Position numbers and translations under genes: made by a program. From sequence record MN445184: a stretch of DNA of 64,000 bases, one strand, 5' to 3'. Under the pieces are notes generated by a model, which was given only the letters and a program-made list of their open reading frames with translations, made no database searches and had not been told where the DNA came from. This document shows positions 12,293-25,736 of this stretch, in pieces. Positions within the stretch are counted from its first letter, which is position 1. Every line of letters starts with the position of its first letter. Source of the stretch: Escherichia phage vB_EcoA_4HA11.

Positions 12293-14188
12293 TTATGAAG
12301 CAGCAACGATGCCGCCACCGGATTCGATTTCGCTGAACTCCATATCTGGTCGAACTGCAGCAAAATCCAAATAAATCCAGTTAATGCTGTACTCAGGCTT
12401 CAACCAAATACCAGCAACCATTTGGTTTGCCGCAATGATATCAGCAGTGTTGTTGTCTTCATCACATTTGACTTTACCATCGTAAATCGCGCCCATATTT
12501 GCCAGCTGGCGAATATATGGACGAACCGCATTGCTGAACAGACCACGTGTAAACGCGTCATTGTTCTCACCAAGATAGTATTTGGCGATTGCGGCGATGT
12601 TCTGCTCAGCCATGATGAACAGGCCACGAACGTTGATACGGTCAAACGCCGACGGGCGGGTCAGGCCAGTTTTGTCACCATACAGGACGATGCCTTCATT
12701 GGAGAAGGTTACGATGCTGTTGATCTGGTTGCGGTACAACACAGCACGTTCATCAGAAGATGCAGACCACGCCATTCGATTATAGTTGTTGTATTTACCA
12801 CGGTTGTGGAACGCCGGAGATTTGTAGATACCCGCGATTTCAATGCTTCGCGCCCAAACACCTGCGGTGCCACCACAAGCCGGAATCCAACGCATTTTGT
12901 CGTTGTACTTGTCGTACACATATGCCCAGTTATCATCCATGAAGAAATAAGAAGAGTCGCGAACAAGGCTTTCACGCCAAGCAACGACATCATCCATTTC
13001 ACGACCACGGTTGCCAACAACCGTATCACGGAGCGGGGATACGAAAGATACGGTATCTTTTCGCTCAGTAGATAAGTCGATCAATGCTTGTTGCTCAATC
13101 AGTTCTTCACAGTACGCAAATACTGGCTTCGCATCATATGCTTCAGCATTGTTCAAGACTTGGATAGCTGCCACGCGGTTGATGTTATAATCGTCTACGC
13201 CGCCTTCTAATTCAACGACACCTGCAACCAGTTCGCTCGCGAAGGTATACACCCAATTTGAAGTATCGTTGATCACGTCTTTGAAGTACGCATTCGCGCC
13301 ATCGGATTTTTTAGAACCCTGGGTGTTCTGCATCAGTTCGTATTTTTCAATGATGGAACCAGAAGCGCCAACAGTAGTGATTACGGCTGTTGCAGTCAGT
13401 CCTTTATCATCAGGAACGATAGCTGTAACGGCCTGAGGACCGATAGCTTTATGGGTCACGATGACAGTGTTGGACTTCACGACAACAGAAGAATAAACAC
13501 TTGTCAGGGAAGTTAGCGCTGTACCGATTTTGGTTGCCAAAGTGGCTGGAGTATCAGTATCCAGATATGCGATATCTTCACCTGCCACACTGATGGTGCC
13601 AGCAGCAGTAGCCGTACCAGAAACGGAGATACGGTCAACCTGACCGACTGCGCCAGCAGAGTCGGTAATGCGGCCAACTTTGTCTACGACAACTACATGG
13701 AATTCACCAGACTGAGGTGCGTATGCAAAGTTATTACGGAATTCCCAAGTCGAGAACCCAGCAGCATCACAAACATTGATAGCAATATCATTACCCAGGG
13801 AACCTGGATAACGACCAGTCCAAGTGATGGACGCCGAAGGACTTGCTGTTTCAAAATCCAGTTTGTTTTTGATCGCAATCGCTGTCTGACCTTTGGTAAC
13901 AGAGTTCTTGGCTAGAGGACCAACAACACGGGTCACCCATGCCATAGAGCTGTAAGACAAAAAGTCCGCGATTACGAGAAAATCGGTCGCAGTACTGTCG
14001 TTGGGTTTGAAGAATTTCTTCACCAAACCTGTCTCACCACCAGTCACCAGCACTGGAAGTTCAACTTCACCCCATTGAAATTTGCCGACGGTCGCGCCCT
14101 GAACAACAACGGACGGAGACGTCTGAAGCGTGGCATCACGCTCAGTCCACTGAACGGACGGCGCAACGCTGAAGCTTTGAGTTGCCAT
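12293..14188 (-). CDS. tail sheath protein (T4 gp18-like)
   Basis: ORF-track start at 14221 is TTG; first ATG at 14188 has GAAGGAA SD; size and synteny match gp18. Confidence 0.8.
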   Translation of the reverse strand: MATQSFSVAPSVQWTERDATLQTSPSVVVQGATVGKFQWGEVELPVLVTGGETGLVKKFFKPNDSTATDFLVIADFLSYSSMAWVTRVVGPLAKNSVTKGQTAIAIKNKLDFETASPSASITWTGRYPGSLGNDIAINVCDAAGFSTWEFRNNFAYAPQSGEFHVVVVDKVGRITDSAGAVGQVDRISVSGTATAAGTISVAGEDIAYLDTDTPATLATKIGTALTSLTSVYSSVVVKSNTVIVTHKAIGPQAVTAIVPDDKGLTATAVITTVGASGSIIEKYELMQNTQGSKKSDGANAYFKDVINDTSNWVYTFASELVAGVVELEGGVDDYNINRVAAIQVLNNAEAYDAKPVFAYCEELIEQQALIDLSTERKDTVSFVSPLRDTVVGNRGREMDDVVAWRESLVRDSSYFFMDDNWAYVYDKYNDKMRWIPACGGTAGVWARSIEIAGIYKSPAFHNRGKYNNYNRMAWSASSDERAVLYRNQINSIVTFSNEGIVLYGDKTGLTRPSAFDRINVRGLFIMAEQNIAAIAKYYLGENNDAFTRGLFSNAVRPYIRQLANMGAIYDGKVKCDEDNNTADIIAANQMVAGIWLKPEYSINWIYLDFAAVRPDMEFSEIESGGGIVAAS

Positions 14189-14230
14189 AATATCATTCCT
14201 TCTCGGTAGAGTTTCGCTCAATTTGAAAGA

Positions 14231-14240: not shown

Positions 14241-16451
14241 TCAATTCTTAAACCACTCATCCATGGTCATCCCTGACATTTCGTTGAAAACTTGAATACC
14301 CCCGAAACCAGGCAAATGCTCAGTTTCGGATGGGGTGTCTCCAACGACTAAACCGCCAAATGGGAATACCTGCTGAGATTCAGTTGAAGACATTCGGTTT
14401 CTCATGTCCTGAGAAATACTTGTAGATGTCAAATCACTGAACCATTCTTGTTTTACCGCCCATGAATATAAGACCAACGGCATGACACAGTCATCGTGAC
14501 AACCGTCATCGGCTTCATACCGAGCGCCTTTGAACACAAATGTACTGAGTTCATCTATCGTGTCCTGGTCTTCTATCACCAACATTTCTTTCTCAATGAG
14601 CGCTTTCAGGTTAGCACAACCGATAGATCGGACTTTTCTGTTGGTATTGATACCAGGTTCCGGTTTACGCCCACCAATCCGTTTCCCCGTCCCTTTGTTA
14701 TCTGTTGATGTGAATATGATTTCTGGATATTCTATCTCTTGATAAAGAATTGTAATAACCTGACCGCCGACGTCGTTGTTTGTTTCAACAAGGACAGGAC
14801 ATTCCCCGTATTCGGTGCACATATCAGCTATCGTGTATGCATACATCATAGGAGGTATCGTATTATTCCTGTACTTGGCTGCTATGACATGCGGATATTC
14901 AGTTATATCCAGAATTGTTAAGACGGAATAATCTCCTTCCACCCCCTTCCCAGTGTCCGCAATCCCAAAGTAGAGACGTTGTGGGTCGTATTCCTTATAA
15001 ATCTTGGTGAATTCATTAGGTTCCCGATACAACTTGGACGTCATTTTATCTAAGCATTTGGCCGGAATCAATGAACCCACGGAACCACGGAACTTAATGC
15101 CAAATTCTTGATCGAAACGAGCATCCCCCAGACGGGCACGTTGTTTGGTTTCCCAATCTGGATCTTTGGTATATGCCGGAACCTTATACCATGGGACTTC
15201 AGTTAGGTGGAAGTCGTTGTATTGTGGATGGCGCGGATCTGCTTTGGTGACAATATCATAGAACAACCCTCGCTGGCCTTTCGGAGTACTTGTCAAAATA
15301 CAGCGTGATGTATCGGCAGATGCAATGGCTGGGAAAGTTGATTCCCAAAATTCAAAGTCGTTTTCGATAAACGCGACTTCGTCAACGTACAAGAGCGATA
15401 CAGAACGACCACGGATGGAGTCCGAAGACGTGGCATAAGCGTATATCTTAGAACCATTTTCAAACTCTATCAGGGTAGAACCAAACTTCTCACAACCCTG
15501 CTGAAGGAAGAATGGAAGGTCTTGGTATGCCTTTCTGATACGGTCAAGAATTTCTATCGCTTGTTTCTCTTTGTTTGCCAGTACTGCGATTTCCTTATCA
15601 GAATGGAACATCGCATACCAAAGAAGAAACGCCGCCACCACGGTCGTGTTATGACTGAGAAAGCCATTCGTGTAATAACGTTGATCACTAGATTTGACCT
15701 GCAGATCGTACATATGGTGATATTCACCAGTCTGCCAAATCTCACGGATTTCTTCTGGACCTTCTGTCGTCATGATGTATGACCCAGCATTCAGGTCTTT
15801 GGCAAATGTCTCCTTCATGTCCGGAGTGAAGAACATATGTTCATCGGCCACGTTAATTCGCCTTCCGGTAACTGTGACAATAACGAATTCCGCATATTTC
15901 TTCGTCTTATGCGCTGCGATAACCGGAACCCAGCCACTATCGGATTGTACAAAGTAACGTTTGCCGAAGCGGCTGTCCACGAACTTGTCATGGTTGCCAA
16001 TGGTATTCAGCGGCACAGCGTGGTTGACGTCCTCGAATCGGCTGTGAAGCTCCCCTATGGTCAGGAGCAACTCCTCTTGGCTGAGAGTATCGTAAACTGT
16101 GACAAGCGTGTCGCCTTTTACACATTTTCCAGACTGACGAGCCTGGATGACCGCATTGAATCGATAGTCCTGAAAGTCATGGAACAACTGTTTCTGATAA
16201 TCATGCATATCGAAAAGGATAAAGCCTTTATCGATCGTGGTTATCTTGTAATAGTTGGCGGCGAAGTAGTGTGCATCCATAGAACATTCAACGAATTCGT
16301 CTTCTTGTTCATCTGTCAGCATTAACTCGACTCGAGGAGCACGCACAGAAGGTTTGCGCATAAACGTTTGGTCCATACGCAATTTCACATCGTCTATTTT
16401 GAACCCCGTTTTAATTGGGGCATATTCTATATCACGCTTCTGATACGCCAT
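14241..16451 (-). CDS. terminase large subunit (T4 gp17-like) containing a mini-intein
   Basis: Walker A QARQSGK|TTVVAAF split by an insert beginning Cys and ending His-Asn before Thr; rest of protein aligns with gp17 ATPase/nuclease. Confidence 0.9.
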   Translation of the reverse strand: MAYQKRDIEYAPIKTGFKIDDVKLRMDQTFMRKPSVRAPRVELMLTDEQEDEFVECSMDAHYFAANYYKITTIDKGFILFDMHDYQKQLFHDFQDYRFNAVIQARQSGKCVKGDTLVTVYDTLSQEELLLTIGELHSRFEDVNHAVPLNTIGNHDKFVDSRFGKRYFVQSDSGWVPVIAAHKTKKYAEFVIVTVTGRRINVADEHMFFTPDMKETFAKDLNAGSYIMTTEGPEEIREIWQTGEYHHMYDLQVKSSDQRYYTNGFLSHNTTVVAAFLLWYAMFHSDKEIAVLANKEKQAIEILDRIRKAYQDLPFFLQQGCEKFGSTLIEFENGSKIYAYATSSDSIRGRSVSLLYVDEVAFIENDFEFWESTFPAIASADTSRCILTSTPKGQRGLFYDIVTKADPRHPQYNDFHLTEVPWYKVPAYTKDPDWETKQRARLGDARFDQEFGIKFRGSVGSLIPAKCLDKMTSKLYREPNEFTKIYKEYDPQRLYFGIADTGKGVEGDYSVLTILDITEYPHVIAAKYRNNTIPPMMYAYTIADMCTEYGECPVLVETNNDVGGQVITILYQEIEYPEIIFTSTDNKGTGKRIGGRKPEPGINTNRKVRSIGCANLKALIEKEMLVIEDQDTIDELSTFVFKGARYEADDGCHDDCVMPLVLYSWAVKQEWFSDLTSTSISQDMRNRMSSTESQQVFPFGGLVVGDTPSETEHLPGFGGIQVFNEMSGMTMDEWFKN
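15648..16124 (-). other. mini-intein (159 aa, no endonuclease domain) inside the terminase P-loop
   Basis: Starts CVKGDTLV (Cys1), ends ...NGFLSHN followed by Thr; extein junction reconstitutes GKT; boundary codons checked against the sequence. Confidence 0.8.
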
Positions 16452-17112
16452 CGTCTTCTTCCTTCACATCAACTGTTTCACCATCAATGATTTCATCTTC
16501 TGGTTGTTGTGCGGCCTTTGCTTGTGCTCTTTCTTCAGCGCGACGGCGGGCATCTTCAATCGTCTTCAATAAATCGCGAGAAGATCGCGCCTTTTTCCCA
16601 ACCGATACTGTTGTTGTTCCGTCTGGTGAAGTTGTAACATCCACTGTCGTGTCATCAACAGGTGGTTCTTTATCACCTGTTACTGCCTTGATGGTTTTCT
16701 GGTTTTCCATCAAGTCTTTATTCAGACCGCGCATGAGTTCACCCAATTCACGGAAAACAGAAAATGCTCGCGGAGCTTCTGTGGATGCAGCCAATTTAGC
16801 GGCTTGTCCCATCATGAACATTGTGGCTTCTTGCATGGCATATGTTGTGTCGCGTATCCGTTTGTAATCCGTTGTAGCATCAGTGTCCGCAAACTCAGGT
16901 ACTTTGGATTCCTTGGAAGCAATATCCTCCAATGAAGGAGGTTCAGGAATCGGCTGATACCCTTCCGGACGTTCACCAAACCATTCACCTGTATTTTCAT
17001 CGAAGTCAATACCTGGACGAGGGGCGACAGCCTCCATCGCCTCCTTCCCAACTTCGTCTCGGGCGGTCACTGCATCAAGTGTGGCGAGTAACCTTTCTGA
17101 CATATTGCTCAT
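16432..17112 (-). CDS. putative terminase small subunit (gp16 position)
   Basis: Immediately upstream of and overlapping the large terminase; start reset from TTG to ATG with GGAGGA SD. Confidence 0.45.
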   Translation of the reverse strand: MSNMSERLLATLDAVTARDEVGKEAMEAVAPRPGIDFDENTGEWFGERPEGYQPIPEPPSLEDIASKESKVPEFADTDATTDYKRIRDTTYAMQEATMFMMGQAAKLAASTEAPRAFSVFRELGELMRGLNKDLMENQKTIKAVTGDKEPPVDDTTVDVTTSPDGTTTVSVGKKARSSRDLLKTIEDARRRAEERAQAKAAQQPEDEIIDGETVDVKEEDDGVSEA

Positions 17113-17114
17113 GA

Positions 17115-17813
17115 TCAATCCTCCGGATGATGTATGCCGTCTTTATCAACTCGGAACCACTCAGGAAGTTCCGACCATGGCATGTTCAAATCATTAGACA
17201 TTTCAATAATTATCTCTTTGATGACGTTTGGATCCCCACCGCCCGAACCATCATCAACCCAATAATCTTCTCCATAGATGTGACCATGTAATTGAAAATT
17301 GAATGAACAATCTATGTGTGGTGATTCTGTTGCGTCCCCTTCCCAGTTGTCAGAAATCGTGTGATTTACCAACATTATCTTCACGTTCTGATCTTGAGAT
17401 AAAGTATCGTTGTCCTTTATCTGACAGTCAACAGAAGGAGTGAACACAGAATAAATTTGTTCTAATACTTGCAACATTTCGACCAATTTTTTAGTTCTGA
17501 TATTGTATTCAAAATCTATAATGATCGGAATGCGTTGTTTGGACCGTGCCGTAGCGGTCGATATTTGGTTGTGGTATGACTTCGTCACCTGTTTATTGAT
17601 TTCGAACTGACCAAAGGACATTGTTGCAAATGGCAGCATATTGGCTGGCACGTTCCTGTTGAGGTCATTACGGCGGCCAATGGCCATATGCAGCGGAATT
17701 TCCATCAAGCCACGTTCGGTTTTGACTTTTAAATCTGACATGATAGCGTTGAACACATGTATGTATTTCAACAATGATTCATGATAGAAATATTTTTCAA
17801 ATGGTCTGGCCAT
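17115..17813 (-). CDS. tail completion / sheath stabiliser (gp15 position)
   Basis: Synteny only (gp13-14-15-16-17 order). Confidence 0.4.
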   Translation of the reverse strand: MARPFEKYFYHESLLKYIHVFNAIMSDLKVKTERGLMEIPLHMAIGRRNDLNRNVPANMLPFATMSFGQFEINKQVTKSYHNQISTATARSKQRIPIIIDFEYNIRTKKLVEMLQVLEQIYSVFTPSVDCQIKDNDTLSQDQNVKIMLVNHTISDNWEGDATESPHIDCSFNFQLHGHIYGEDYWVDDGSGGGDPNVIKEIIIEMSNDLNMPWSELPEWFRVDKDGIHHPED

Positions 17814-17815
17814 GA

Positions 17816-18457
17816 TTATTCCCCGAAGTCGATCTTCATTTTATTGGGCGAAAGATCTTTCTCTATTTCGTCCGCAAATTGGTTATCCGTTTGCAGGCTG
17901 GCGTCTTTGTACACACCGTCTCCTTCCAGATCCTGCAATCGTTTATCAATATCGTCTATTTCAGATACACCTGTATCGAAATCTTCGTTACCGTATTGGA
18001 ACAACGTACATGGTAGGGAATATGTGTACCATTTCCCAAATTGCATGAATTCTTCATCGTTATTCGGGTTATTCACTTTAAATATTTTGTTAGCCATAGG
18101 CAGATATATCAAATCACCTTCTTGAGGCATTTGTTCAAGGCCTGGACCATTACCAATAACTTCTGAAAAACGACGACGAGCAATAGTGAATGTCACTTCA
18201 TCTTGTAATTGGATACCGCCGAACTTTTCCCACATCTGTGTGTTGAAGCCTTGATAATCCTGCATGTACACTTCGATGTCAAACGCTTGGTCGAATTTGT
18301 GTTCGGCCTCGTTTAAAATTGGGTATTTTTCAACAATAGAACGTGGAATATACTTGACATCAATCCCACGCAATTGTATCATCTCGACCACCAAGTCATC
18401 AATTAATTTTTGAGTCCCTTGGTGTGCAGTGTAATTGAAGTATCGAGAAGTAGCCAT
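17816..18457 (-). CDS. neck protein (gp14 position)
   Basis: Synteny only; ATG start; ACTAAATA box upstream. Confidence 0.4.
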   Translation of the reverse strand: MATSRYFNYTAHQGTQKLIDDLVVEMIQLRGIDVKYIPRSIVEKYPILNEAEHKFDQAFDIEVYMQDYQGFNTQMWEKFGGIQLQDEVTFTIARRRFSEVIGNGPGLEQMPQEGDLIYLPMANKIFKVNNPNNDEEFMQFGKWYTYSLPCTLFQYGNEDFDTGVSEIDDIDKRLQDLEGDGVYKDASLQTDNQFADEIEKDLSPNKMKIDFGE

Positions 18458-18515: not shown

Positions 18516-19226
18516 ATGATCGTCCTGACAGAAGGAATTGCTTCTAAAAGAATCAAATCATATGCTTCTTCTAGAGGTGGAATATTTCACGGATTTGTCG
18601 GTGGTAAATTTGTCACCAACCAAACTAAGTGTATTTTGTCTTGCGAATTTGGTCATGAATGGAACTCAGCAACTTATGCGAATTTGATAAATAAAGGAAG
18701 TTGGTGTCCTTCGTGTCGTGGAAACAAGAAGATCTCAAATGAAGAAGCTAAAATCAGGATATCGGAGTACGCCGTAAGCAACGGTGGTAAATTCATAAAT
18801 TTCATTGGCGGGAAGTACAAAGACAACGTGACAATTTGTGTCATGGAATGTTCTGAAACACACAGGTGGGAATCCAGGTACGGTAATTTAGTCAACAGCC
18901 GAAGTTGGTGTCCGTATTGCGCAGAATCGGGTTACAATTATTCTAAGGAAGGTTTCTTATATATTCTAGTCAACGACGAAGGTTGTATGAAAGTGGGAAT
19001 AACCAACTCACCTAAGAAACGCATAAATTGTTTAAGAAGCAGCACCCCGTTTGACTTCAACGTTCTAGAAATATTCAATTCAACCGACGGATTATTTGTT
19101 TCCAGGTTGGAAAGAATTGCCCATAGAATGTGTAAGAGCGCGGGATATAAGGATTTTGACGGTGCTACCGAATGGTTTGTATATGACGGGTCAGTCGTAG
19201 ATTTTATCAGAAATATTTTGAAGTAG
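18516..19226 (+). CDS. homing endonuclease-like protein (GIY-YIG/T5orf172-type nuclease with tandem zinc-ribbon modules)
   Basis: Two repeated Cys/His modules (C..C..H..SWCP.C) then GFLYIL..KVGIT..R; opposite strand to neighbours. Confidence 0.55.
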   Translation: MIVLTEGIASKRIKSYASSRGGIFHGFVGGKFVTNQTKCILSCEFGHEWNSATYANLINKGSWCPSCRGNKKISNEEAKIRISEYAVSNGGKFINFIGGKYKDNVTICVMECSETHRWESRYGNLVNSRSWCPYCAESGYNYSKEGFLYILVNDEGCMKVGITNSPKKRINCLRSSTPFDFNVLEIFNSTDGLFVSRLERIAHRMCKSAGYKDFDGATEWFVYDGSVVDFIRNILK

Positions 19227-20897: not shown

Positions 20898-23800
20898 TTA
20901 TGCCAGAGCAATAAGACGGAAGTCTTTGAATGATGGAGGAGCAACGCGGTTCCCCCGTACAAGCGCTCGGACTTTCAGGCCAACAAACGGGTTATTGCTC
21001 GCCACAGTCTTGTCATACTCATATTCAAAGAATGTGGAACCGTCGTTAACCAGAGGCGAAGTTGGGGTGACGTCTTCCCAAGCCACACTATCCATCTCTT
21101 GCCCTGCTCGTAGAAGTTTCACCTGCACCTTCATCGAAGACTGAGATGGGAGCATTGCACCAAAGAACAACTTCACAGTAGAACACGGATTATCAAATCC
21201 GATGTCCTTTGTCACGTATTTGAAGACATCTTCAAATGGATCCACACCGTATGAGTTGAAGATTACGCTCAGGTCATCGCCATCAATCATTGGAGCAGTG
21301 TACACGTTGTTTTCACTACGCGTCATGGTGGCTCGGATTTGGAAATCCCCGACCTGACGATAGATACCTTCAGTCGGCAATGCCACGTCAGTGTCAGTTT
21401 CAAACTCAGCCCAATCAGACATAGAATTTGAAGTGGCATCGCGATAACGGTATTCCAATTTCAGAATTGAACCTTCCAGAGCCGAATTGGTAACGCTGGC
21501 ATAGAACATATCAACCAGATAATTGCCCAAGAAAGAAGCATTATCTCCACCGATTTGTCCATTGCTGTCTGCTGCCGTACCGACGTCAATCTTGAATGAA
21601 GTATAGCTCGCATCTGTCACAGTAAACGTTTTGTTAAGTTGTTCAGGAGTAAAGCCACAACCGCCTGTCAATTCAGAAAGAGTGACATTGTTCCCAGCAA
21701 CCAAACCATGACCAGGTGCAAACACAGTCACAACAGAAGACCCGCTTACGCAGTTCAGAGTGTTCAATCCCAACGGACGTTGTTTTGGCCCGAGCTTCGG
21801 ATCAAATGTTACAACGTTCTGTCCCGCAGCGAAGTTACAACGATATATGCGGAATTTCATATCAGCCATTTGGTTTGGAGACCATGTAGAACCGTTTGAA
21901 GAAGTGAAGAACACCCCTGTATACGGTTGTTTGGCGATATATTCGTTGGACAGAAGGTTTTTCTTGCCCATTTCCGCGATATACGCGTTGTAATCCTGAG
22001 TATTCGCCAACAAAACGATAGCAAACTCAGTCGATGCTTGCAGATACACCGGATAATCAAAGGTGAACTTCGTACCGCCGGAAGAGTCTGTAGAGATCGT
22101 CACTTCAGACGGGTTCAAAGTTTTACGAGTAATGACTGTATGAGAAGGTAAGCCATTCTCCATCTCGCGAATTTCCAGAGTGATCGGAACATCACGTGAC
22201 TTGGTAGAGAAGAATACTTCCACGCCTTCAATATACTCGCCGCCATTCTTAGTCGCTACCATAAACGATTGGGCAATCGGATCACGCCATTGGTCGACCA
22301 CAACTTCAGAAGTGCTGGTTTCGGTGCGAGTACTAGCAGTGTAACCCAGGACACGAGTGTTGACAAAGGTCTTTTGAATACCTTGTTTCTTACCGAAAGA
22401 TTTATGAACAATTTCTGCATTGGTCAGTGTATCATCCGCAGATTTACTGTCAACAGGGCTATCCGTTAAGCGGAACACGTTATCGCCTGTGTTGAACTTG
22501 ATTGTATCGTTCTGTGGAACGCGGAATATACCTTTAACAGCACCATTGGCATCAGTGGTGATTGGGTCACCGAAATTACCACCATTCGGTTTGCAATACA
22601 GATTGACGTCACGACCAGAGAAGAACGCATACATACGAGTGAAAGGTCGCAGCCCAGATGCGTCGAAAGAAATATCGATCTCGCGCATGTATGGGATAAC
22701 TTGCGTCTCCACAATCTGTTCACCAGTCATGGTCGTGGTTGTTTTGTCCGTGTATGTATATGTGGTGACATCACGGGCAGAAACAGTCGTGCGGTAACGA
22801 TATCCCCACCACACACCACCAGCGCCATGCGGTTCCCAAACACGATCAGAAACAGAAACAGTACGCCATGTTCCGTACACTGAACCTTCTTGTACAGTAC
22901 CACGGGTGTTGATCGTTTCATTGATAATACGCGGCGCAACATAATAGTTTTCGAACCAGTAGTCTGTGGTCGGGTTAATCTTCAAGAAACCTTCCCAATT
23001 GAATACTGCATACGGGTTAACGTTGATCGTCGTCGTCGCATATTCTTGGTTCACTGAGATTTCAGGCGTGTAATTACAAACCACCATCCCATCCATCACT
23101 TTGTTCCAGCCAACAGGAGTCATGTCAACAACGTTCTGTTGTACAAACGGGCGTAGACGTCCGTTTTCGGTATCGATAGAACCCATCCAATCTTCAGACA
23201 AGTCATCAATCAACCGGAAGTCTTTGAACGGATCAGCTGCAATACCATTTTTGAAACGGGGATTGCCCGTGATGGGGTCGAACACTTGCTGTGTCATCGC
23301 TGAAGATTCCAACTGTGACAGAGAGGTATAGTATTCAACATTGGAAATACGGGTTTCCAGTTTACCGATATCGCGCATCGTATAACGACGATTGTCAATA
23401 GTGCGAATTTGGATATCATCAATATTCGGCGTATACGGTGGGATCAACAATTCATACAAACGCATGGCGTTCGCTGGGATTGCTGGAGAAGCCAGATTGT
23501 TCGAACTGATGCCACGAGCCACACCAAACACACCGTTATCTGCCAGATAAATCGCGTCAATACGCGGCAGATAATATTCTGTGTCCAGAATAACTGCAGT
23601 GTTTGGACGAACCATATCTGTGTCAGAAGTTCCGTTGGTGATTTTCGGACGGAAATCCAAACTATCTGCCAGGCCGTACACCGCGCCTGATGTAGAAGAT
23701 GTATAATTCGGGATATCTTTATAATCCATCGAAGTATACGAATCAGCAGAGAAGAAATCACCGGAACTGTGGGCGAAGTATTGATACACCACTGTATACG

Positions 23801-25736
23801 TCCCTGAGATTGCTCCAGCGCTGGATAACAAGTTAGACTTGTAATACCCTGCATCACGCTGTCCGCCATCTAGGACGAAGCTGGAGGTCACGTCTGCGCC
23901 AGTATCGTTTTTGACCGACACCAATTTCCAACCATCGTGATTCGCCAAAGGGCGGCTAGTCTGCGAGGTGAACGTCACTGTTTCAGTTGTTTCAGTGATG
24001 GTCTTCGTTTTGATTGTGGCCGTGGTACGAATCATCAGCGCCAGCAAATTGATTGACTGGTTAGCATTACCACTGCCCAGAGAAATCTGCAACGCCGAAC
24101 CGACCGGAGAACCAGTCAAAGACAAAGAACCAGAGATATCGAACTGCGCTTCGGAACCATCAGATTTCGCTGCAGAGTACAACGAAAATTCTGGGGAAAA
24201 ACTATATCCCAATGGAGCAGAAATAGAACCCGCGCCGCTGTTGTCCAACGTCACTTTATACGTTCTGAGAACAGTGTAGTTGATATCCACGGAGCCAGTT
24301 GGTGCTAAAGTCTTGACACCGAATACCGGAAGAGAGAAGATCAGATCTATCATAGAACTCTGGTTAAACTGATTGGATTCCAGTTCAGCAGAGAACATGG
24401 TGATACCGCTTTCTTCGTAAGACACTTTGGTGATAGTGGATGCATCGCCAGTAACGACCAGGTCGCGCATATACAGACGAAATTCTGTTGAATTACGTTC
24501 AGCTGATATACAAAGTGCTGTAGCCTGGGTAACGCCTGAAGCATTCAGTAATTTGTATCGAACGGTGCGGGATATCACTGGCACACCTTTAGAATTCTTA
24601 GTGACCAGATAATTGCCTGTGGCCACCGCAACAGGGGTGTTGTTCAGGACATCGGTATCCCGCGCCTTATCAACGATCACCAACTCTTCCCCGACGTTTT
24701 CGATACGGCGACCGCGAACATAGGAAATACCTGGTTTCATTACAGACACGAATTTACTTTCGTCGCCGCCATCAGCAGCATTGAATACACCACCATTGTT
24801 ATTGACTTTCAGGTGTTCGCGGATGTCGATCTGGTGCGTTGAAACGTTGTAATCGCCGTTGGTTTCATACGTCCGTTGGGCCAACGTGTCTTCCAGAATA
24901 TTATAGGTGGACTGAGTCACCATAGACTGGATTTTACCATCACGAACTTTGGCCAGTTCAACAAAGTCTTCAACCACAGCATCATAATCAAATCGAGATA
25001 AGACCAGATCTATTCGAAGACGATGAGCGCCTGGGGCTTTGGAGTTAATCGTTCCCTGAGCATTTGAATAAAGGGATTCATCTTCTGTTTCAGTGACAAT
25101 GGTTTCGGTGACTTTAAATCCGATGCGGTGGGAAGTGATGTTAGAAGTTTTGTCAACGATAAGAGTTGCGTCATCAACGTCTAGGAACATCCCACGAATG
25201 AAGTAAACGCCTTTCGTCATACGAGCGACGATAGAACCAGTCACTGCAGCTGCGATACCATAACCAATACGAATGAAATTATCATTCACGTCGTAAGTCT
25301 GGAAATACAGATTATCGTTAACATGGAATCCGTCAGCATTACCCGCTTCAGTCATCTCAAGGATAGCCAGCATCGTATCAGGAGCAGACAGATCACGTTC
25401 AAGAGACAACACACGCGCTTTGGCATTATTGTCCTTCCCCAAAACGTAGAGTTCAGAAATACCTTCCAGATCAGTGAATTCAGTACCACCAGCCAAAGTG
25501 AATTTCAAAGAAACTGCGGCATTGGTGATCGTCAGACCGCCAGGGATAACCATAGAACCATCTTTGAACAAATGGTTGCCTAATTTTTCAATTTGATCCT
25601 GAAGAATAGTCTGCATCTGGTTCAGTTCGCGAGTCTGAACCTTGATAGGCATCGGACGAAAAAGAATCCGTGAAAAACGTTTCCCAGGATTCCAGTCATC
25701 CCAATACGGGCGACGGTTTAAATTTGTAGATTGCAT
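20898..25736 (-). CDS. very large virion structural protein (baseplate or tail-fibre associated)
   Basis: 1612-aa uninterrupted ORF, ATG with GGAG SD, TATAAATG and ACTAAATA boxes upstream; function not resolvable from sequence. Confidence 0.8.
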   Translation of the reverse strand: MQSTNLNRRPYWDDWNPGKRFSRILFRPMPIKVQTRELNQMQTILQDQIEKLGNHLFKDGSMVIPGGLTITNAAVSLKFTLAGGTEFTDLEGISELYVLGKDNNAKARVLSLERDLSAPDTMLAILEMTEAGNADGFHVNDNLYFQTYDVNDNFIRIGYGIAAAVTGSIVARMTKGVYFIRGMFLDVDDATLIVDKTSNITSHRIGFKVTETIVTETEDESLYSNAQGTINSKAPGAHRLRIDLVLSRFDYDAVVEDFVELAKVRDGKIQSMVTQSTYNILEDTLAQRTYETNGDYNVSTHQIDIREHLKVNNNGGVFNAADGGDESKFVSVMKPGISYVRGRRIENVGEELVIVDKARDTDVLNNTPVAVATGNYLVTKNSKGVPVISRTVRYKLLNASGVTQATALCISAERNSTEFRLYMRDLVVTGDASTITKVSYEESGITMFSAELESNQFNQSSMIDLIFSLPVFGVKTLAPTGSVDINYTVLRTYKVTLDNSGAGSISAPLGYSFSPEFSLYSAAKSDGSEAQFDISGSLSLTGSPVGSALQISLGSGNANQSINLLALMIRTTATIKTKTITETTETVTFTSQTSRPLANHDGWKLVSVKNDTGADVTSSFVLDGGQRDAGYYKSNLLSSAGAISGTYTVVYQYFAHSSGDFFSADSYTSMDYKDIPNYTSSTSGAVYGLADSLDFRPKITNGTSDTDMVRPNTAVILDTEYYLPRIDAIYLADNGVFGVARGISSNNLASPAIPANAMRLYELLIPPYTPNIDDIQIRTIDNRRYTMRDIGKLETRISNVEYYTSLSQLESSAMTQQVFDPITGNPRFKNGIAADPFKDFRLIDDLSEDWMGSIDTENGRLRPFVQQNVVDMTPVGWNKVMDGMVVCNYTPEISVNQEYATTTINVNPYAVFNWEGFLKINPTTDYWFENYYVAPRIINETINTRGTVQEGSVYGTWRTVSVSDRVWEPHGAGGVWWGYRYRTTVSARDVTTYTYTDKTTTTMTGEQIVETQVIPYMREIDISFDASGLRPFTRMYAFFSGRDVNLYCKPNGGNFGDPITTDANGAVKGIFRVPQNDTIKFNTGDNVFRLTDSPVDSKSADDTLTNAEIVHKSFGKKQGIQKTFVNTRVLGYTASTRTETSTSEVVVDQWRDPIAQSFMVATKNGGEYIEGVEVFFSTKSRDVPITLEIREMENGLPSHTVITRKTLNPSEVTISTDSSGGTKFTFDYPVYLQASTEFAIVLLANTQDYNAYIAEMGKKNLLSNEYIAKQPYTGVFFTSSNGSTWSPNQMADMKFRIYRCNFAAGQNVVTFDPKLGPKQRPLGLNTLNCVSGSSVVTVFAPGHGLVAGNNVTLSELTGGCGFTPEQLNKTFTVTDASYTSFKIDVGTAADSNGQIGGDNASFLGNYLVDMFYASVTNSALEGSILKLEYRYRDATSNSMSDWAEFETDTDVALPTEGIYRQVGDFQIRATMTRSENNVYTAPMIDGDDLSVIFNSYGVDPFEDVFKYVTKDIGFDNPCSTVKLFFGAMLPSQSSMKVQVKLLRAGQEMDSVAWEDVTPTSPLVNDGSTFFEYEYDKTVASNNPFVGLKVRALVRGNRVAPPSFKDFRLIALA

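What the first reader, a model, noticed from the sequence alone, without database searches (positions are those of the whole stretch)
15648..16124. Mini-intein interrupting the Walker A P-loop of the large terminase
The terminase reads ...QARQSGK then a 159-aa insert beginning CVKGDTLV and ending NGFLSHN, then TTVVAAFLLW. Removing the insert restores a contiguous GKT P-loop as in T4 gp17. The insert has Cys1, a penultimate His, a terminal Asn and a +1 Thr, and is too short for a homing-endonuclease domain. Terminase function therefore depends on protein splicing.
Basis: partly seen in the sequence, partly recalled or inferred. Interest (0 to 1): 0.6.

Follow-up and report, generated by a model that had tools for sequence, protein, structure and literature searches.

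The report
Known mini-intein in phage terminase P-loop
The large terminase gene of this Salmonella/E. coli Kuttervirus phage really is interrupted, between the Lys and Thr of its ATP-binding loop, by a 159-residue self-splicing mini-intein. The same intein, with the same boundaries, has been annotated and published for sister phages since 2013, so the finding is correct but ordinary.

Summary
The TerL ORF is 14241-16451(-), 736 aa. Residues 110-268 (window 15648-16124) read CVKGDTLV...NGFLSHN and sit between ARQSGK and TTVVAAFLLW.

- **Host protein:** removing the insert gives a 577-aa protein that aligns without a gap across the Walker A motif to T4 gp17 (E 1e-76).
- **Intein-free relatives:** Ackermannviridae relatives without the insert show a clean empty site, RQSGK|TTVVAAFLLW.
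- **Fold:** with a 21-sequence alignment the insert models at pLDDT 95 as a HINT fold. The 50 best listed PDB matches are inteins or intein-like BIL domains.
- **Conservation:** C1, block B His96, block F Asp140, His158-Asn159 and Thr+1 are invariant across about 27 same-site TerL inteins. Omega is about 0.05-0.07.
- **No endonuclease:** none was found in frame, out of frame or antisense.

This is a class 1 mini-intein that must splice to give active terminase. Splicing is inferred, not shown.

It is already known. GenBank KF669653 (phage Marshall) annotates "intein from Cys110 to Asn268", and genome announcements from 2013 and 2019 report it.

A side result may be unreported. Kutterviruses carry two intein alleles only 72% identical in DNA inside terminase genes that are 98-99% identical, and the intein and extein histories disagree. 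Recombination therefore still moves this endonuclease-less intein.

The parts
14241..16451 (-). Large terminase (TerL, T4 gp17-type) precursor ORF, 736 aa, 84.5 kDa, stop codon included
   Evidence: ORF list. Terminase_6N scores 60.3 bits. The spliced form aligns to T4 gp17 structures 3ezk/3cpe at E 1e-76. The gene is 99.5% identical in DNA to the TerL of Salmonella phages SS3 and SS9.
16125..16451 (-). N-extein, residues 1-109, ending ...ARQSGK (Walker A up to the invariant Lys)
15648..16124 (-). Class 1 mini-intein, 159 aa (precursor residues Cys110-Asn268), 18.3 kDa
   Evidence: Translation. TIGR01445 24.9 bits and PF14890 29.3 bits. Sequence hits to solved inteins. AF2 pLDDT 95.1 and HINT-fold matches. 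Same boundaries as the annotated intein of phage Marshall.
16122..16124 (-). Cys1 codon (block A nucleophile; the only Cys in the intein)
   Evidence: Invariant in 21 of 21 family members. Positions.
15837..15848 (-). Block B, A93-D94-E95-H96. His96 is invariant. The usual Thr of TxxH is an invariant Ala in this family.
   Evidence: Alignments. Aligned to block B of the gp41-1 and CatC inteins.
15705..15713 (-). Block F, M138-Y139-D140, with invariant Asp140
   Evidence: Aligned to the IDIEV segment of gp41-1.
15648..15653 (-). Block G, His158-Asn159 (penultimate His and the cyclising Asn)
   Evidence: Invariant LSHN in all family members.
15645..15647 (-). Thr+1 codon. It is the first residue of the C-extein, the splicing nucleophile and the Walker A Thr of GKT.
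14241..15647 (-). C-extein, 468 aa plus stop: the rest of the ATPase domain (Walker B LLYVDE) and the RNaseH-like nuclease domain
16432..17118 (-). Context: small terminase (gp16-like), overlapping the TerL start by 20 nt. The conserved order is gp14-gp15-gp16-gp17-gp18.
   Evidence: PF11053 27.8 bits. Same gene order in intein-free Vibrio phage YC and in L018.

Best explanation
This is a class 1 mini-intein without an endonuclease, inserted in frame between Lys109 and Thr of the Walker A motif (GK|T) of the T4 gp17-type large terminase of a Kuttervirus (Ackermannviridae).

The 84.5-kDa precursor cannot bind ATP, because 159 residues separate the P-loop Lys from the Thr. The HINT domain folds and splices itself out by the standard four steps, which I infer rather than show:
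1. An N-S acyl shift at Lys109-Cys110.
2. Attack of the thioester by the hydroxyl of Thr+1.
3. Cyclisation of Asn268, helped by His267 and the block F Asp.
4. An O-N shift that forms a normal Lys-Thr peptide bond.

The products are a 66.2-kDa active TerL and a free 18.3-kDa intein.

At the DNA level the element has no nuclease of its own. It is inherited mainly vertically across enterobacterial Ackermannviridae and is kept splicing-competent by purifying selection, because a non-splicing allele would abolish DNA packaging. Ordinary homologous recombination in the conserved extein flanks reshuffles it between lineages.
For: **Shown here**
- Exact in-frame insert with C1, HN and T+1.
- The spliced sequence aligns gap-free across Walker A to T4 gp17.
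- Intein-free homologues with the same gene order have a clean empty site: L018/P0015 at 84% extein identity, and Vibrio phage YC, an Ackermannviridae member of genus Campanilevirus.
- The AF2 model has pLDDT 95.1 and pTM 0.88. All 50 listed PDB fold matches are inteins or BIL domains, led by VidaL at E 4e-11 and TM 0.75-0.82.
- Sequence-level hits to the CatC, VidaL and gp41-1 inteins, and to TIGR01445 and PF14890.
- C1, A93, D94, H96, D140, S157, H158 and N159 are invariant in 21 family members down to 34% identity, and the LSHN|T junction is kept in every extracted same-site intein.
- dN/dS of the intein is 0.05-0.07.
- There is no second TerL or intein in the window.
- No in-frame, out-of-frame or antisense nuclease was found.

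**From the literature**
- The same intein is annotated in phages Marshall and Maynard (PMC3853055, PMC3868846; GenBank note) and in Klebsiella phage Magnus (PMC6763660).
- Insertion between the P-loop Lys and Thr is called the 'classic' intein site, and five mycobacteriophage TerL inteins, of other terminase families and insertion sites, spliced in a reporter (PMC5050341).
Against: - No experimental evidence of splicing exists for this intein, here or in the papers I found.
- The block B Thr of the canonical TxxH motif is Ala, although this is invariant across the family.
- Curated HMM scores are marginal. PF14890 scores 29.3 bits against a cut-off of 35.8. TIGR01443 scores about 13 against 15.6. 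TIGR01445 passes only when the intein is scanned alone (24.9 against 24.5).
- The structure is a prediction. The single-sequence attempt failed at pLDDT 30.
Confidence: 0.93

Rival explanations
1. The intein is more than a passenger. It acts as a conditional (environment-sensing) splicing switch that times or gates terminase activation, which would explain why it is retained across nearly a whole phage family.
For: It is present in all sampled enterobacterial Ackermannviridae genera at 67-100% identity. It is under strong purifying selection. Its position in the ATP-binding loop makes activity strictly dependent on splicing. Kelley et al. 2016 (PMC5050341) discuss this idea for P-loop and TerL inteins.
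Against: Purifying selection and retention are equally expected for any intein in an essential gene that lacks a means of precise deletion. The intein has a single Cys (Cys1) and a Thr at +1, and the nearest extein Cys is residue 56, so the known disulfide-trap type of redox control is not evident. Close relatives do well without the intein (P0015-P0019, Vibrio phage YC). No data bear on splicing kinetics.
Confidence: 0.1
2. The endonuclease-less intein is still actively mobile by homing in trans. A free-standing homing endonuclease encoded elsewhere in an Ackermannviridae genome would cut intein-free terminase alleles, and repair would copy the intein in.
For: Intein and extein histories disagree strongly. 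Window versus L016: extein dS 0.05-0.12, intein dS saturated, and the divergent block equals the intein plus about 65 nt on each side. Window versus L006: intein dS 0.31, extein dS 1.3-2.8. These genomes carry several free-standing endonuclease genes, one of them 2.4 kb away at 18516-19226 (PMC3853055). Related large inteins at the same site carry nested +1-frame HNH or Vsr-like endonuclease ORFs.
Against: Exchange between two occupied alleles offers no empty target to cut. T4-like phages recombine at very high rates, and the terminase C-extein is itself mosaic (dS about 1.0 in L007, L008 and L010 against 0.05 in L016). In L006 the shared tract ends inside the intein rather than at its edge. 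The neighbouring endonuclease gene does not track the intein allele: phage pertopsoe has that gene but carries intein allele 2. General recombination explains everything seen.
Confidence: 0.12
3. The insert is a degenerate, non-splicing HINT domain or a bacterial intein-like (BIL) domain that stays in the mature terminase or only cleaves it.
For: Block B lacks the canonical Thr. Curated HMM scores are marginal. BIL2 domains appear among the fold matches.
Against: Every residue needed for all four splicing steps is invariant over a family that has diverged to 34% identity. BIL domains occur in variable regions of non-essential proteins, not between the catalytic Lys and Thr of an essential ATPase. 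A P-loop split by 159 residues cannot work, and cleavage without ligation would separate Walker A Lys from the rest of the ATPase. Omega of 0.05-0.07 shows the domain is constrained.
Confidence: 0.03

Closest known systems
Annotated TerL intein of Kuttervirus phages Marshall and Maynard (GenBank KF669653: 'intein from Cys110 to Asn268'; PMC3853055, PMC3868846)
   Same: Same genus, same gene, same insertion point, same length (159 aa) and same residue numbers. The exteins are about 99% identical in protein.
   Different: The window carries the other intein allele, 78.6% identical in protein and about 72% in DNA to the Marshall type. That allele is also already in public genomes, for example SS3/SS9, CBA120, EP75 and PhaxI at 99-100%, but those records call the gene plain 'terminase large subunit'.
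Mycobacteriophage TerL1-a inteins and the 'classic' P-loop intein site (Kelley et al. 2016, PMC5050341)
   Same: Insertion between the invariant Walker A Lys and the nucleophilic Thr of a phage large terminase ATPase. Splicing is required to rebuild the active site.
   Different: The terminase family differs: Terminase_6/T4 gp17 type here, Terminase_1 there. The Terminase_6 inteins in that study sit in the C-motif instead. The paper showed identifiable, active homing endonucleases for the TerL1-b and TerL1-c inteins; this intein has none.
Structurally characterised mini-inteins and split inteins of phage or metagenomic origin: VidaL (6vgv), gp41-1 (6qaz), the consensus CatC (6dsl) and NpuDnaB (4o1r)
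   Same: HINT fold (TM 0.66-0.82). Detectable sequence similarity over blocks B, F and G, including the ...YYTNG[IF]xSHN ending.
   Different: Those are split or engineered inteins from other host proteins, at only about 16-20% identity. This one is contiguous and has an extra helical loop of about 20 residues (residues 30-46) between block A and the invariant Lys47-Phe48.
Phage inteins with out-of-frame or antisense homing endonuclease genes (bioRxiv 10.1101/2025.01.02.630785)
   Same: Metagenomic relatives of this intein at the same TerL site (L019, L020, L021) show that architecture. The intein frame stays open through a +1-frame HNH-NUMOD3 or DUF559/Vsr-like ORF.
   Different: The window's intein has no such hidden ORF, so it is a true mini-intein. 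In the relatives the insert lies between block A and block B rather than at the usual block B/F position.

Membership tests
Class 1 intein (HINT superfamily) | N-terminal Cys or Ser nucleophile (block A) | tested here: met
   Cys110 of the precursor is intein residue 1. It is invariant in 21 of 21 aligned family members.
Class 1 intein (HINT superfamily) | Block B His (TxxH motif) | tested here: met
   His96 is invariant and aligns to the block B His of gp41-1 and CatC. The Thr of TxxH is replaced by an invariant Ala93 (motif A-D-x-H). This deviates from the consensus but does not touch the essential His.
Class 1 intein (HINT superfamily) | Block F Asp and block G His-Asn at the C-terminus | tested here: met
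   M138-x-D140 and L156-S157-H158-N159 are invariant.
Class 1 intein (HINT superfamily) | Cys, Ser or Thr as first residue of the C-extein | tested here: met
   Thr+1 (TTVVAAF...). T is kept in nearly all same-site TerL inteins collected and is S in two, P0071 and P0097.
Class 1 intein (HINT superfamily) | HINT fold | tested here: met
   AF2 with a 21-sequence alignment gives pLDDT 95.1. The top 50 Foldseek PDB hits are all inteins or BIL domains, with probability 1.00 and TM up to 0.82.
Class 1 intein (HINT superfamily) | Score above the curated cut-off of intein profile HMMs | tested here: inconclusive
   PF14890 scores 29.3 against a cut-off of 35.8. TIGR01445 scores 24.9 against 24.5 with the intein alone, but 19.2 in the full protein. 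TIGR01443 scores about 13 against 15.6. The hits are significant but marginal, because this intein family is divergent.
Class 1 intein (HINT superfamily) | In-frame insertion at a conserved site of a host protein, with intein-free homologues | tested here: met
   Gap-free alignment of the spliced protein to T4 gp17. Empty sites in P0015-P0019, Vibrio phage YC and many others.
Class 1 intein (HINT superfamily) | Autocatalytic protein splicing that yields ligated exteins | not testable with these tools
   This needs expression and SDS-PAGE or mass spectrometry. I found no published experiment for this intein.
Mini-intein (no homing endonuclease) | No endonuclease domain in frame, and none hidden in another frame or on the other strand | tested here: met
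   The 159 aa form a single HINT fold. Alternative-frame and antisense ORFs have no Pfam or PHROG nuclease hits. The long antisense open stretch is codon-aligned, is explained by rare TTA/CTA/TCA codons (1.9%), and is not conserved in other genera.
Class 3 intein (WCT type) | Block F Cys nucleophile with Trp (block B) and Thr (block G), usually without an N-terminal nucleophile | tested here: not met
   The intein starts with Cys1, block F has Asp140 rather than Cys, and Cys1 is the only Cys.
T4 gp17-type large terminase (Terminase_6) | N-terminal ASCE ATPase with Walker A and B, plus a C-terminal RNaseH-like nuclease | tested here: met
   PF03237 scores 60.3 bits against a cut-off of 22. Residues 28-516 of the spliced protein align to gp17 structures 3ezk/3cpe at E 1e-76, including SRQLGKT/ARQSGKT and the nuclease domain. 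PF17289 alone is just below its cut-off (20.9 against 22.6).

The most novel reading that the evidence does not exclude
The intein has no endonuclease, but it is not an evolutionary dead end. Within Kuttervirus two alleles that are saturated at synonymous sites (72% DNA identity) sit in terminase genes that are 98-99% identical. The window's allele is also shared at dS 0.3 with a lineage whose exteins differ at dS 1.3-2.8. So the intein segment is being exchanged between phage lineages. This could happen with help in trans from free-standing endonucleases, or from the nested out-of-frame endonucleases seen in relatives at the same site. Such exchange would make Ackermannviridae a tractable system for studying how mini-inteins persist and spread. 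I found no published description of this allele structure, but my literature search was limited.
Probability: 0.3. Interest if true: 0.4.

Novelty: already known. Interest (0 to 1): 0.15.

Why it matters
**Annotation.** Most of the public Kuttervirus records I saw label this gene simply 'terminase large subunit' or 'hypothetical protein'. Terminase is a favourite marker for phage phylogeny and packaging-type prediction, so the 159-residue insert should be removed before alignment. Left in, it can mislead trees, because its history differs from that of the exteins.

**Biology.** The intein adds nothing new in kind. P-loop inteins in phage terminases are well documented (PMC5050341), and this very intein was annotated in 2013.

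**What might merit follow-up.** The two-allele structure and the intein/extein incongruence could interest people who study intein population dynamics. So could the nested out-of-frame endonucleases in related same-site inteins. A compact, naturally contiguous Cys1/Thr+1 intein related to the fast gp41-1/VidaL group could also be worth a look as a protein-engineering part.

Tried and rejected
- **Plus-strand reading of the given coordinates.** It contains a stop and is meaningless. The feature is on the minus strand.
- **Single-sequence AlphaFold of the intein plus 10-residue flanks.** pLDDT was 30 and the model was unusable. It was replaced by a run with an alignment.
- **The search for homologous proteins with the intein alone.** It returned only 2 proteins. 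The full precursor was needed to collect the family.
- **Hidden out-of-frame or antisense endonuclease in the window's intein.** The 162-aa antisense ORF at 15837-16325(+) and the smaller ORFs have no Pfam hit, and only one non-significant PHROG hit of unknown function (E 0.09). The antisense open stretch is codon-aligned, so stops can arise only from TTA/CTA/TCA, which make up 1.9% of TerL codons. It extends into the exteins and is interrupted in other genera. Rejected.
- **Link between the neighbouring sporadic T5orf172/GIY-YIG-like gene (18516-19226) and the intein allele.** There is no correlation.
- **Second terminase copy or second intein in the window.** None found.
- **Foreign base composition.** The intein has GC 0.476 against 0.449 for the gene and 0.450 for the window, which is not informative.
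- **Class 3 intein, BIL domain, sequencing artefact or intron.** All rejected on residue pattern, on conservation in more than 280 phage records, and on omega of about 0.06.
- **The 443-447-aa 'inteins' of P0054 and P0065 as ordinary endonuclease-bearing versions.** Pfam finds no in-frame nuclease. The insert is low-complexity in the intein frame because the real endonuclease ORF is in the +1 frame.
Full report
**1. Observation**

The coordinates are right, but the feature is on the minus strand. The plus-strand translation of 15648-16124 contains a stop and is meaningless. The minus strand gives 159 codons, CVKGDTLVTVYDTL...DQRYYTNGFLSHN. These lie inside a 736-aa ORF at 14241-16451(-), as residues 110-268. 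They are preceded by ...DYRFNAVIQARQSGK and followed by TTVVAAFLLWYAMFH. The surrounding genes are on the same strand and follow the T4-like late-gene order:
- neck protein gp14 (17816-18457)
- tail sheath stabiliser gp15 (17115-17813)
- small terminase (16432-17118)
- large terminase
- tail sheath (12293-14221)

**2. Source**

The terminase gene is 99.5% identical in DNA to Salmonella phages SS3, SS9 and SeKF_64, and 99.1% to Escherichia phage CBA120. It matches 210 phage records in all. The window is therefore from a Kuttervirus (Ackermannviridae, Cvivirinae). The taxonomy is taken from the Marshall record.

**3. Host protein and insertion site**

Pfam finds Terminase_6N after the insert, at residues 269-460, with 60.3 bits. 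With residues 110-268 removed, the 577-aa product aligns to the T4 gp17 structures 3ezk and 3cpe over residues 28-516 (E 1.4e-76). The alignment runs straight through the junction: query ARQSGKTTVVAAFLLW against gp17 SRQLGKTTVVAIFLAH. The insert therefore splits the Walker A motif between the invariant Lys and the Thr.

Intein-free relatives exist and are close. The metagenomic proteins P0015-P0019 (575-581 aa, 74-85% extein identity) read VQARQSGKTTVVAAFLLWYA. P0015's contig L018 has the same gp15-gp16-gp17-gp18 order and a clean empty site, CGTCAGTCAGGTAAG|ACAACTGTCGTG. Vibrio phage YC, an Ackermannviridae member of genus Campanilevirus, also lacks the insert.

**4. The insert is an intein**

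*Sequence.* TIGR01445 (intein N-terminal region) scores 24.9 bits against a cut-off of 24.5 when the insert is scanned alone. PF14890 scores 29.3 bits (E 8.6e-7), below its cut-off of 35.8. TIGR01443 scores about 13 against 15.6. A phmmer search of PDB sequences returns only inteins: CatC, VidaL, gp41-1, PabCDC21-1 and Mxe GyrA. The alignments cover blocks B, F and G.

*Family.* Among terminase homologues I extracted 27 inteins of 150-181 aa at the same RQxGK|C site. Several larger ones occupy the same site too. All end in [FIV]LSHN followed by T (S in two). In a 21-sequence alignment reaching down to 34% identity the invariant positions are C1, K47, F48, G64, T74, Y77, A93, D94, H96, T119, G122, M138, D140, T152, L156, S157, H158 and N159. 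These include the full class 1 catalytic set: Cys1, block B His96, block F Asp140, and block G His158-Asn159, together with Thr+1. Block B reads A-D-x-H, so the usual Thr is an invariant Ala in this family.

*Structure.* A single-sequence model failed at pLDDT 30. With the alignment, AlphaFold2 gave pLDDT 95.1 and pTM 0.88. All 50 listed Foldseek PDB hits are inteins or BIL domains: VidaL at E 4e-11, then NpuDnaB, PhoCDC21-1, Ssp DnaB, gp41-1, Mtu RecA and others, with TM up to 0.82. The whole chain is one HINT domain with a short helical loop at about residues 23-43.

*Selection.* Where synonymous divergence is measurable, the intein's dN/dS is 0.05-0.07.

*Class.* It is not class 3, because it starts with Cys1, has no block F Cys, and Cys1 is its only Cys.

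**5. No endonuclease**

A recent preprint warns that inteins with out-of-frame or antisense endonuclease genes can be mistaken for mini-inteins (10.1101/2025.01.02.630785), so I checked the other five frames. The longest is an antisense ORF of 162 aa at 15837-16325(+). It has no Pfam hit and only one non-significant PHROG hit of unknown function. It is codon-aligned with the sense frame, so stops can arise only from TTA, CTA or TCA, which make up 1.9% of terminase codons. It also runs out into the N-extein and is interrupted in other genera. I conclude that this is a true mini-intein.

**6. Mechanism**

This part is inferred from the established class 1 pathway. The 84.5-kDa precursor is inactive because the P-loop is split. 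Splicing then proceeds in four steps:
1. Cys110 forms a thioester with Lys109.
2. The hydroxyl of Thr269 attacks the thioester.
3. Asn268 cyclises.
4. An O-N shift rebuilds Lys-Thr.

The products are a 66.2-kDa terminase and an 18.3-kDa intein (masses). There is no second terminase gene in the window, so packaging should depend on splicing. Five mycobacteriophage terminase inteins, of other terminase families and insertion sites, spliced efficiently in a reporter. The Lys|Thr site is described there as the 'classic' P-loop insertion (PMC5050341). Splicing of this particular intein has not been shown in anything I found.

**7. Already known**

It also carries mat_peptide features for the intein and for the spliced terminase. 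These are the same residue numbers as here. The genome announcements of Marshall and Maynard (2013; PMC3853055 and PMC3868846) and of Klebsiella phage Magnus (2019; PMC6763660) state that the large terminase is interrupted by an intein. The nr database holds a 159-aa entry named 'intein [Salmonella phage Maynard]', 79% identical to the window's intein. The finding is therefore correct and already known.

**8. What goes beyond the published notes**

*(a) Two alleles in one genus.* tblastn with the intein finds 93 phage records at 90% identity or more. It finds a large group at exactly 78.6% (the Marshall type) in otherwise near-identical Kutterviruses. Other genera infecting Klebsiella, Dickeya, Shigella and Serratia lie at 67-76%.

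Against locus L016, a 160,400-bp Kuttervirus genome, the N- and C-exteins are 97.6% and 98.9% identical in DNA (dS 0.12 and 0.05; dN 0.004 or less). The intein is 72.3% identical, with dN 0.163 and saturated dS. The divergent block runs from about 67 nt upstream to about 63 nt downstream of the intein.

*(b) The converse case.* Against L006 the intein has dS 0.31 and the exteins 1.3-2.8. At protein level, window against P0005 gives intein 96.9% and extein 87.2%. Here the shared tract ends inside the 3' part of the intein.

*(c) General mosaicism.* The terminase C-extein is itself mosaic among Kutterviruses, with dS about 1.0 against L007, L008 and L010 but 0.05 against L016.

The simplest reading is frequent homologous recombination. 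The intein behaves as a block too divergent to recombine internally, so it is exchanged whole or nearly whole. Homing assisted in trans by an endonuclease is possible but not needed. I give it about 0.12.

**9. Relatives at the same site**

Three metagenomic terminases with 422-447-aa inteins at the same GK|T site (L019, L020, L021) keep the intein frame open. Their extra roughly 280-310 codons lie between block A and the invariant Lys-Phe, not at the usual block B/F position. That insert encodes a +1-frame ORF:
- In L019 it is an HNH plus NUMOD3 homing endonuclease (phrog_655, E 1e-44).
- In L020 and L021 it is a DUF559/Vsr-like nuclease with an N-terminal zinc-finger-like region.

Architectures of this kind were recently described for actinobacteriophage inteins. 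The window's variable loop, residues about 30-46, maps to this insertion point. A plausible but untested idea is that the mini-intein is either what remains after such a nested gene was lost or the form that existed before one arrived.

**10. Verdict**

Novelty is 'already known' and interest is low (0.15). The most novel reading not excluded is continuing horizontal exchange of an endonuclease-less intein, with two ancient alleles in one genus. I give that a probability of about 0.3 and moderate interest if true.

Noticed in passing
window 18516-19226 (+): A 236-aa ORF with two CapR-homology repeats and a T5orf172/MUG113 (GIY-YIG-like) domain (phrog_681 'endonuclease', E 4e-60). It lies on the strand opposite the gp14-gp18 late genes, just upstream of gp14. 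It is sporadic: only 39 of 192 matching phage records carry most of it, and the rest match only the last 90 nt or so. It is 93% identical in DNA in Dickeya (Limestonevirus) phages. It looks like a free-standing mobile homing-endonuclease gene. Its presence does not track the intein allele.
   Followed up: partly
window 15580-16190 (-), compared with loci L016, L006-L010: Kutterviruses carry two intein alleles, 72% identical in DNA and 78.6% in protein, inside terminase genes that are 98-99% identical. The divergent block is the intein plus about 65 nt of extein on each side. Conversely, the window's allele is shared (dS 0.31) with a lineage whose exteins differ at dS 1.3-2.8. Intein and extein histories are therefore incongruent.
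   Followed up: yes
L019 1651-2991 (nested ORF 1763-2689); L020 1262-2590 (1341-2246); L021 1292-2557 (1362-2207): Metagenomic T4-like terminases have 422-447-aa inteins at the same GK|T site. Their insert is low-complexity in the intein frame but encodes a +1-frame endonuclease: HNH plus NUMOD3 (phrog_655, E 1e-44) in L019, and DUF559/Vsr-like in L020 and L021. Both frames stay open for about 300 codons. The insert sits between block A and block B, not at the usual block B/F position.
   Followed up: partly
P0063 (Vibrio phage VP-1 TerL, residues 506-589); P0090 (residues 327-409): Some terminase homologues have a GIY-YIG catalytic domain after the ATPase domain and no detectable RNaseH-like nuclease domain. 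This suggests an in-frame fusion with, or read-through into, a Seg-like endonuclease gene that splits the terminase gene.
   Followed up: no
P0081, P0086, P0100, P0118 (terminase homologues): These carry a second intein that ends ...HN|C immediately before the Walker B region (for example CNLLYIDETAF). Some terminases therefore hold two inteins, one in Walker A and one at Walker B.
   Followed up: no
window 15837-16325 (+): A 162-aa antisense ORF overlaps the N-terminal half of the intein and part of the N-extein. In allele-2 phages the open stretch reaches 240 codons. It has no Pfam hit and only one non-significant PHROG hit. The frame is codon-aligned with the sense strand, so it reflects the rarity of TTA/CTA/TCA codons (1.9%), and it is broken in other genera. 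I judge it not to be a gene.
   Followed up: yes
public records matched: Most of the Kuttervirus and other Ackermannviridae records I saw label this gene only 'terminase large subunit' or 'hypothetical protein', with no intein feature. Phage 38 (KR296692) has it as two CDS with a 1-nt length difference, which is probably a sequencing frameshift.
   Followed up: no
window 20898-25736 (-): A very long ORF of 1612 aa lies a few kb from the terminase module. I did not examine it.
   Followed up: no
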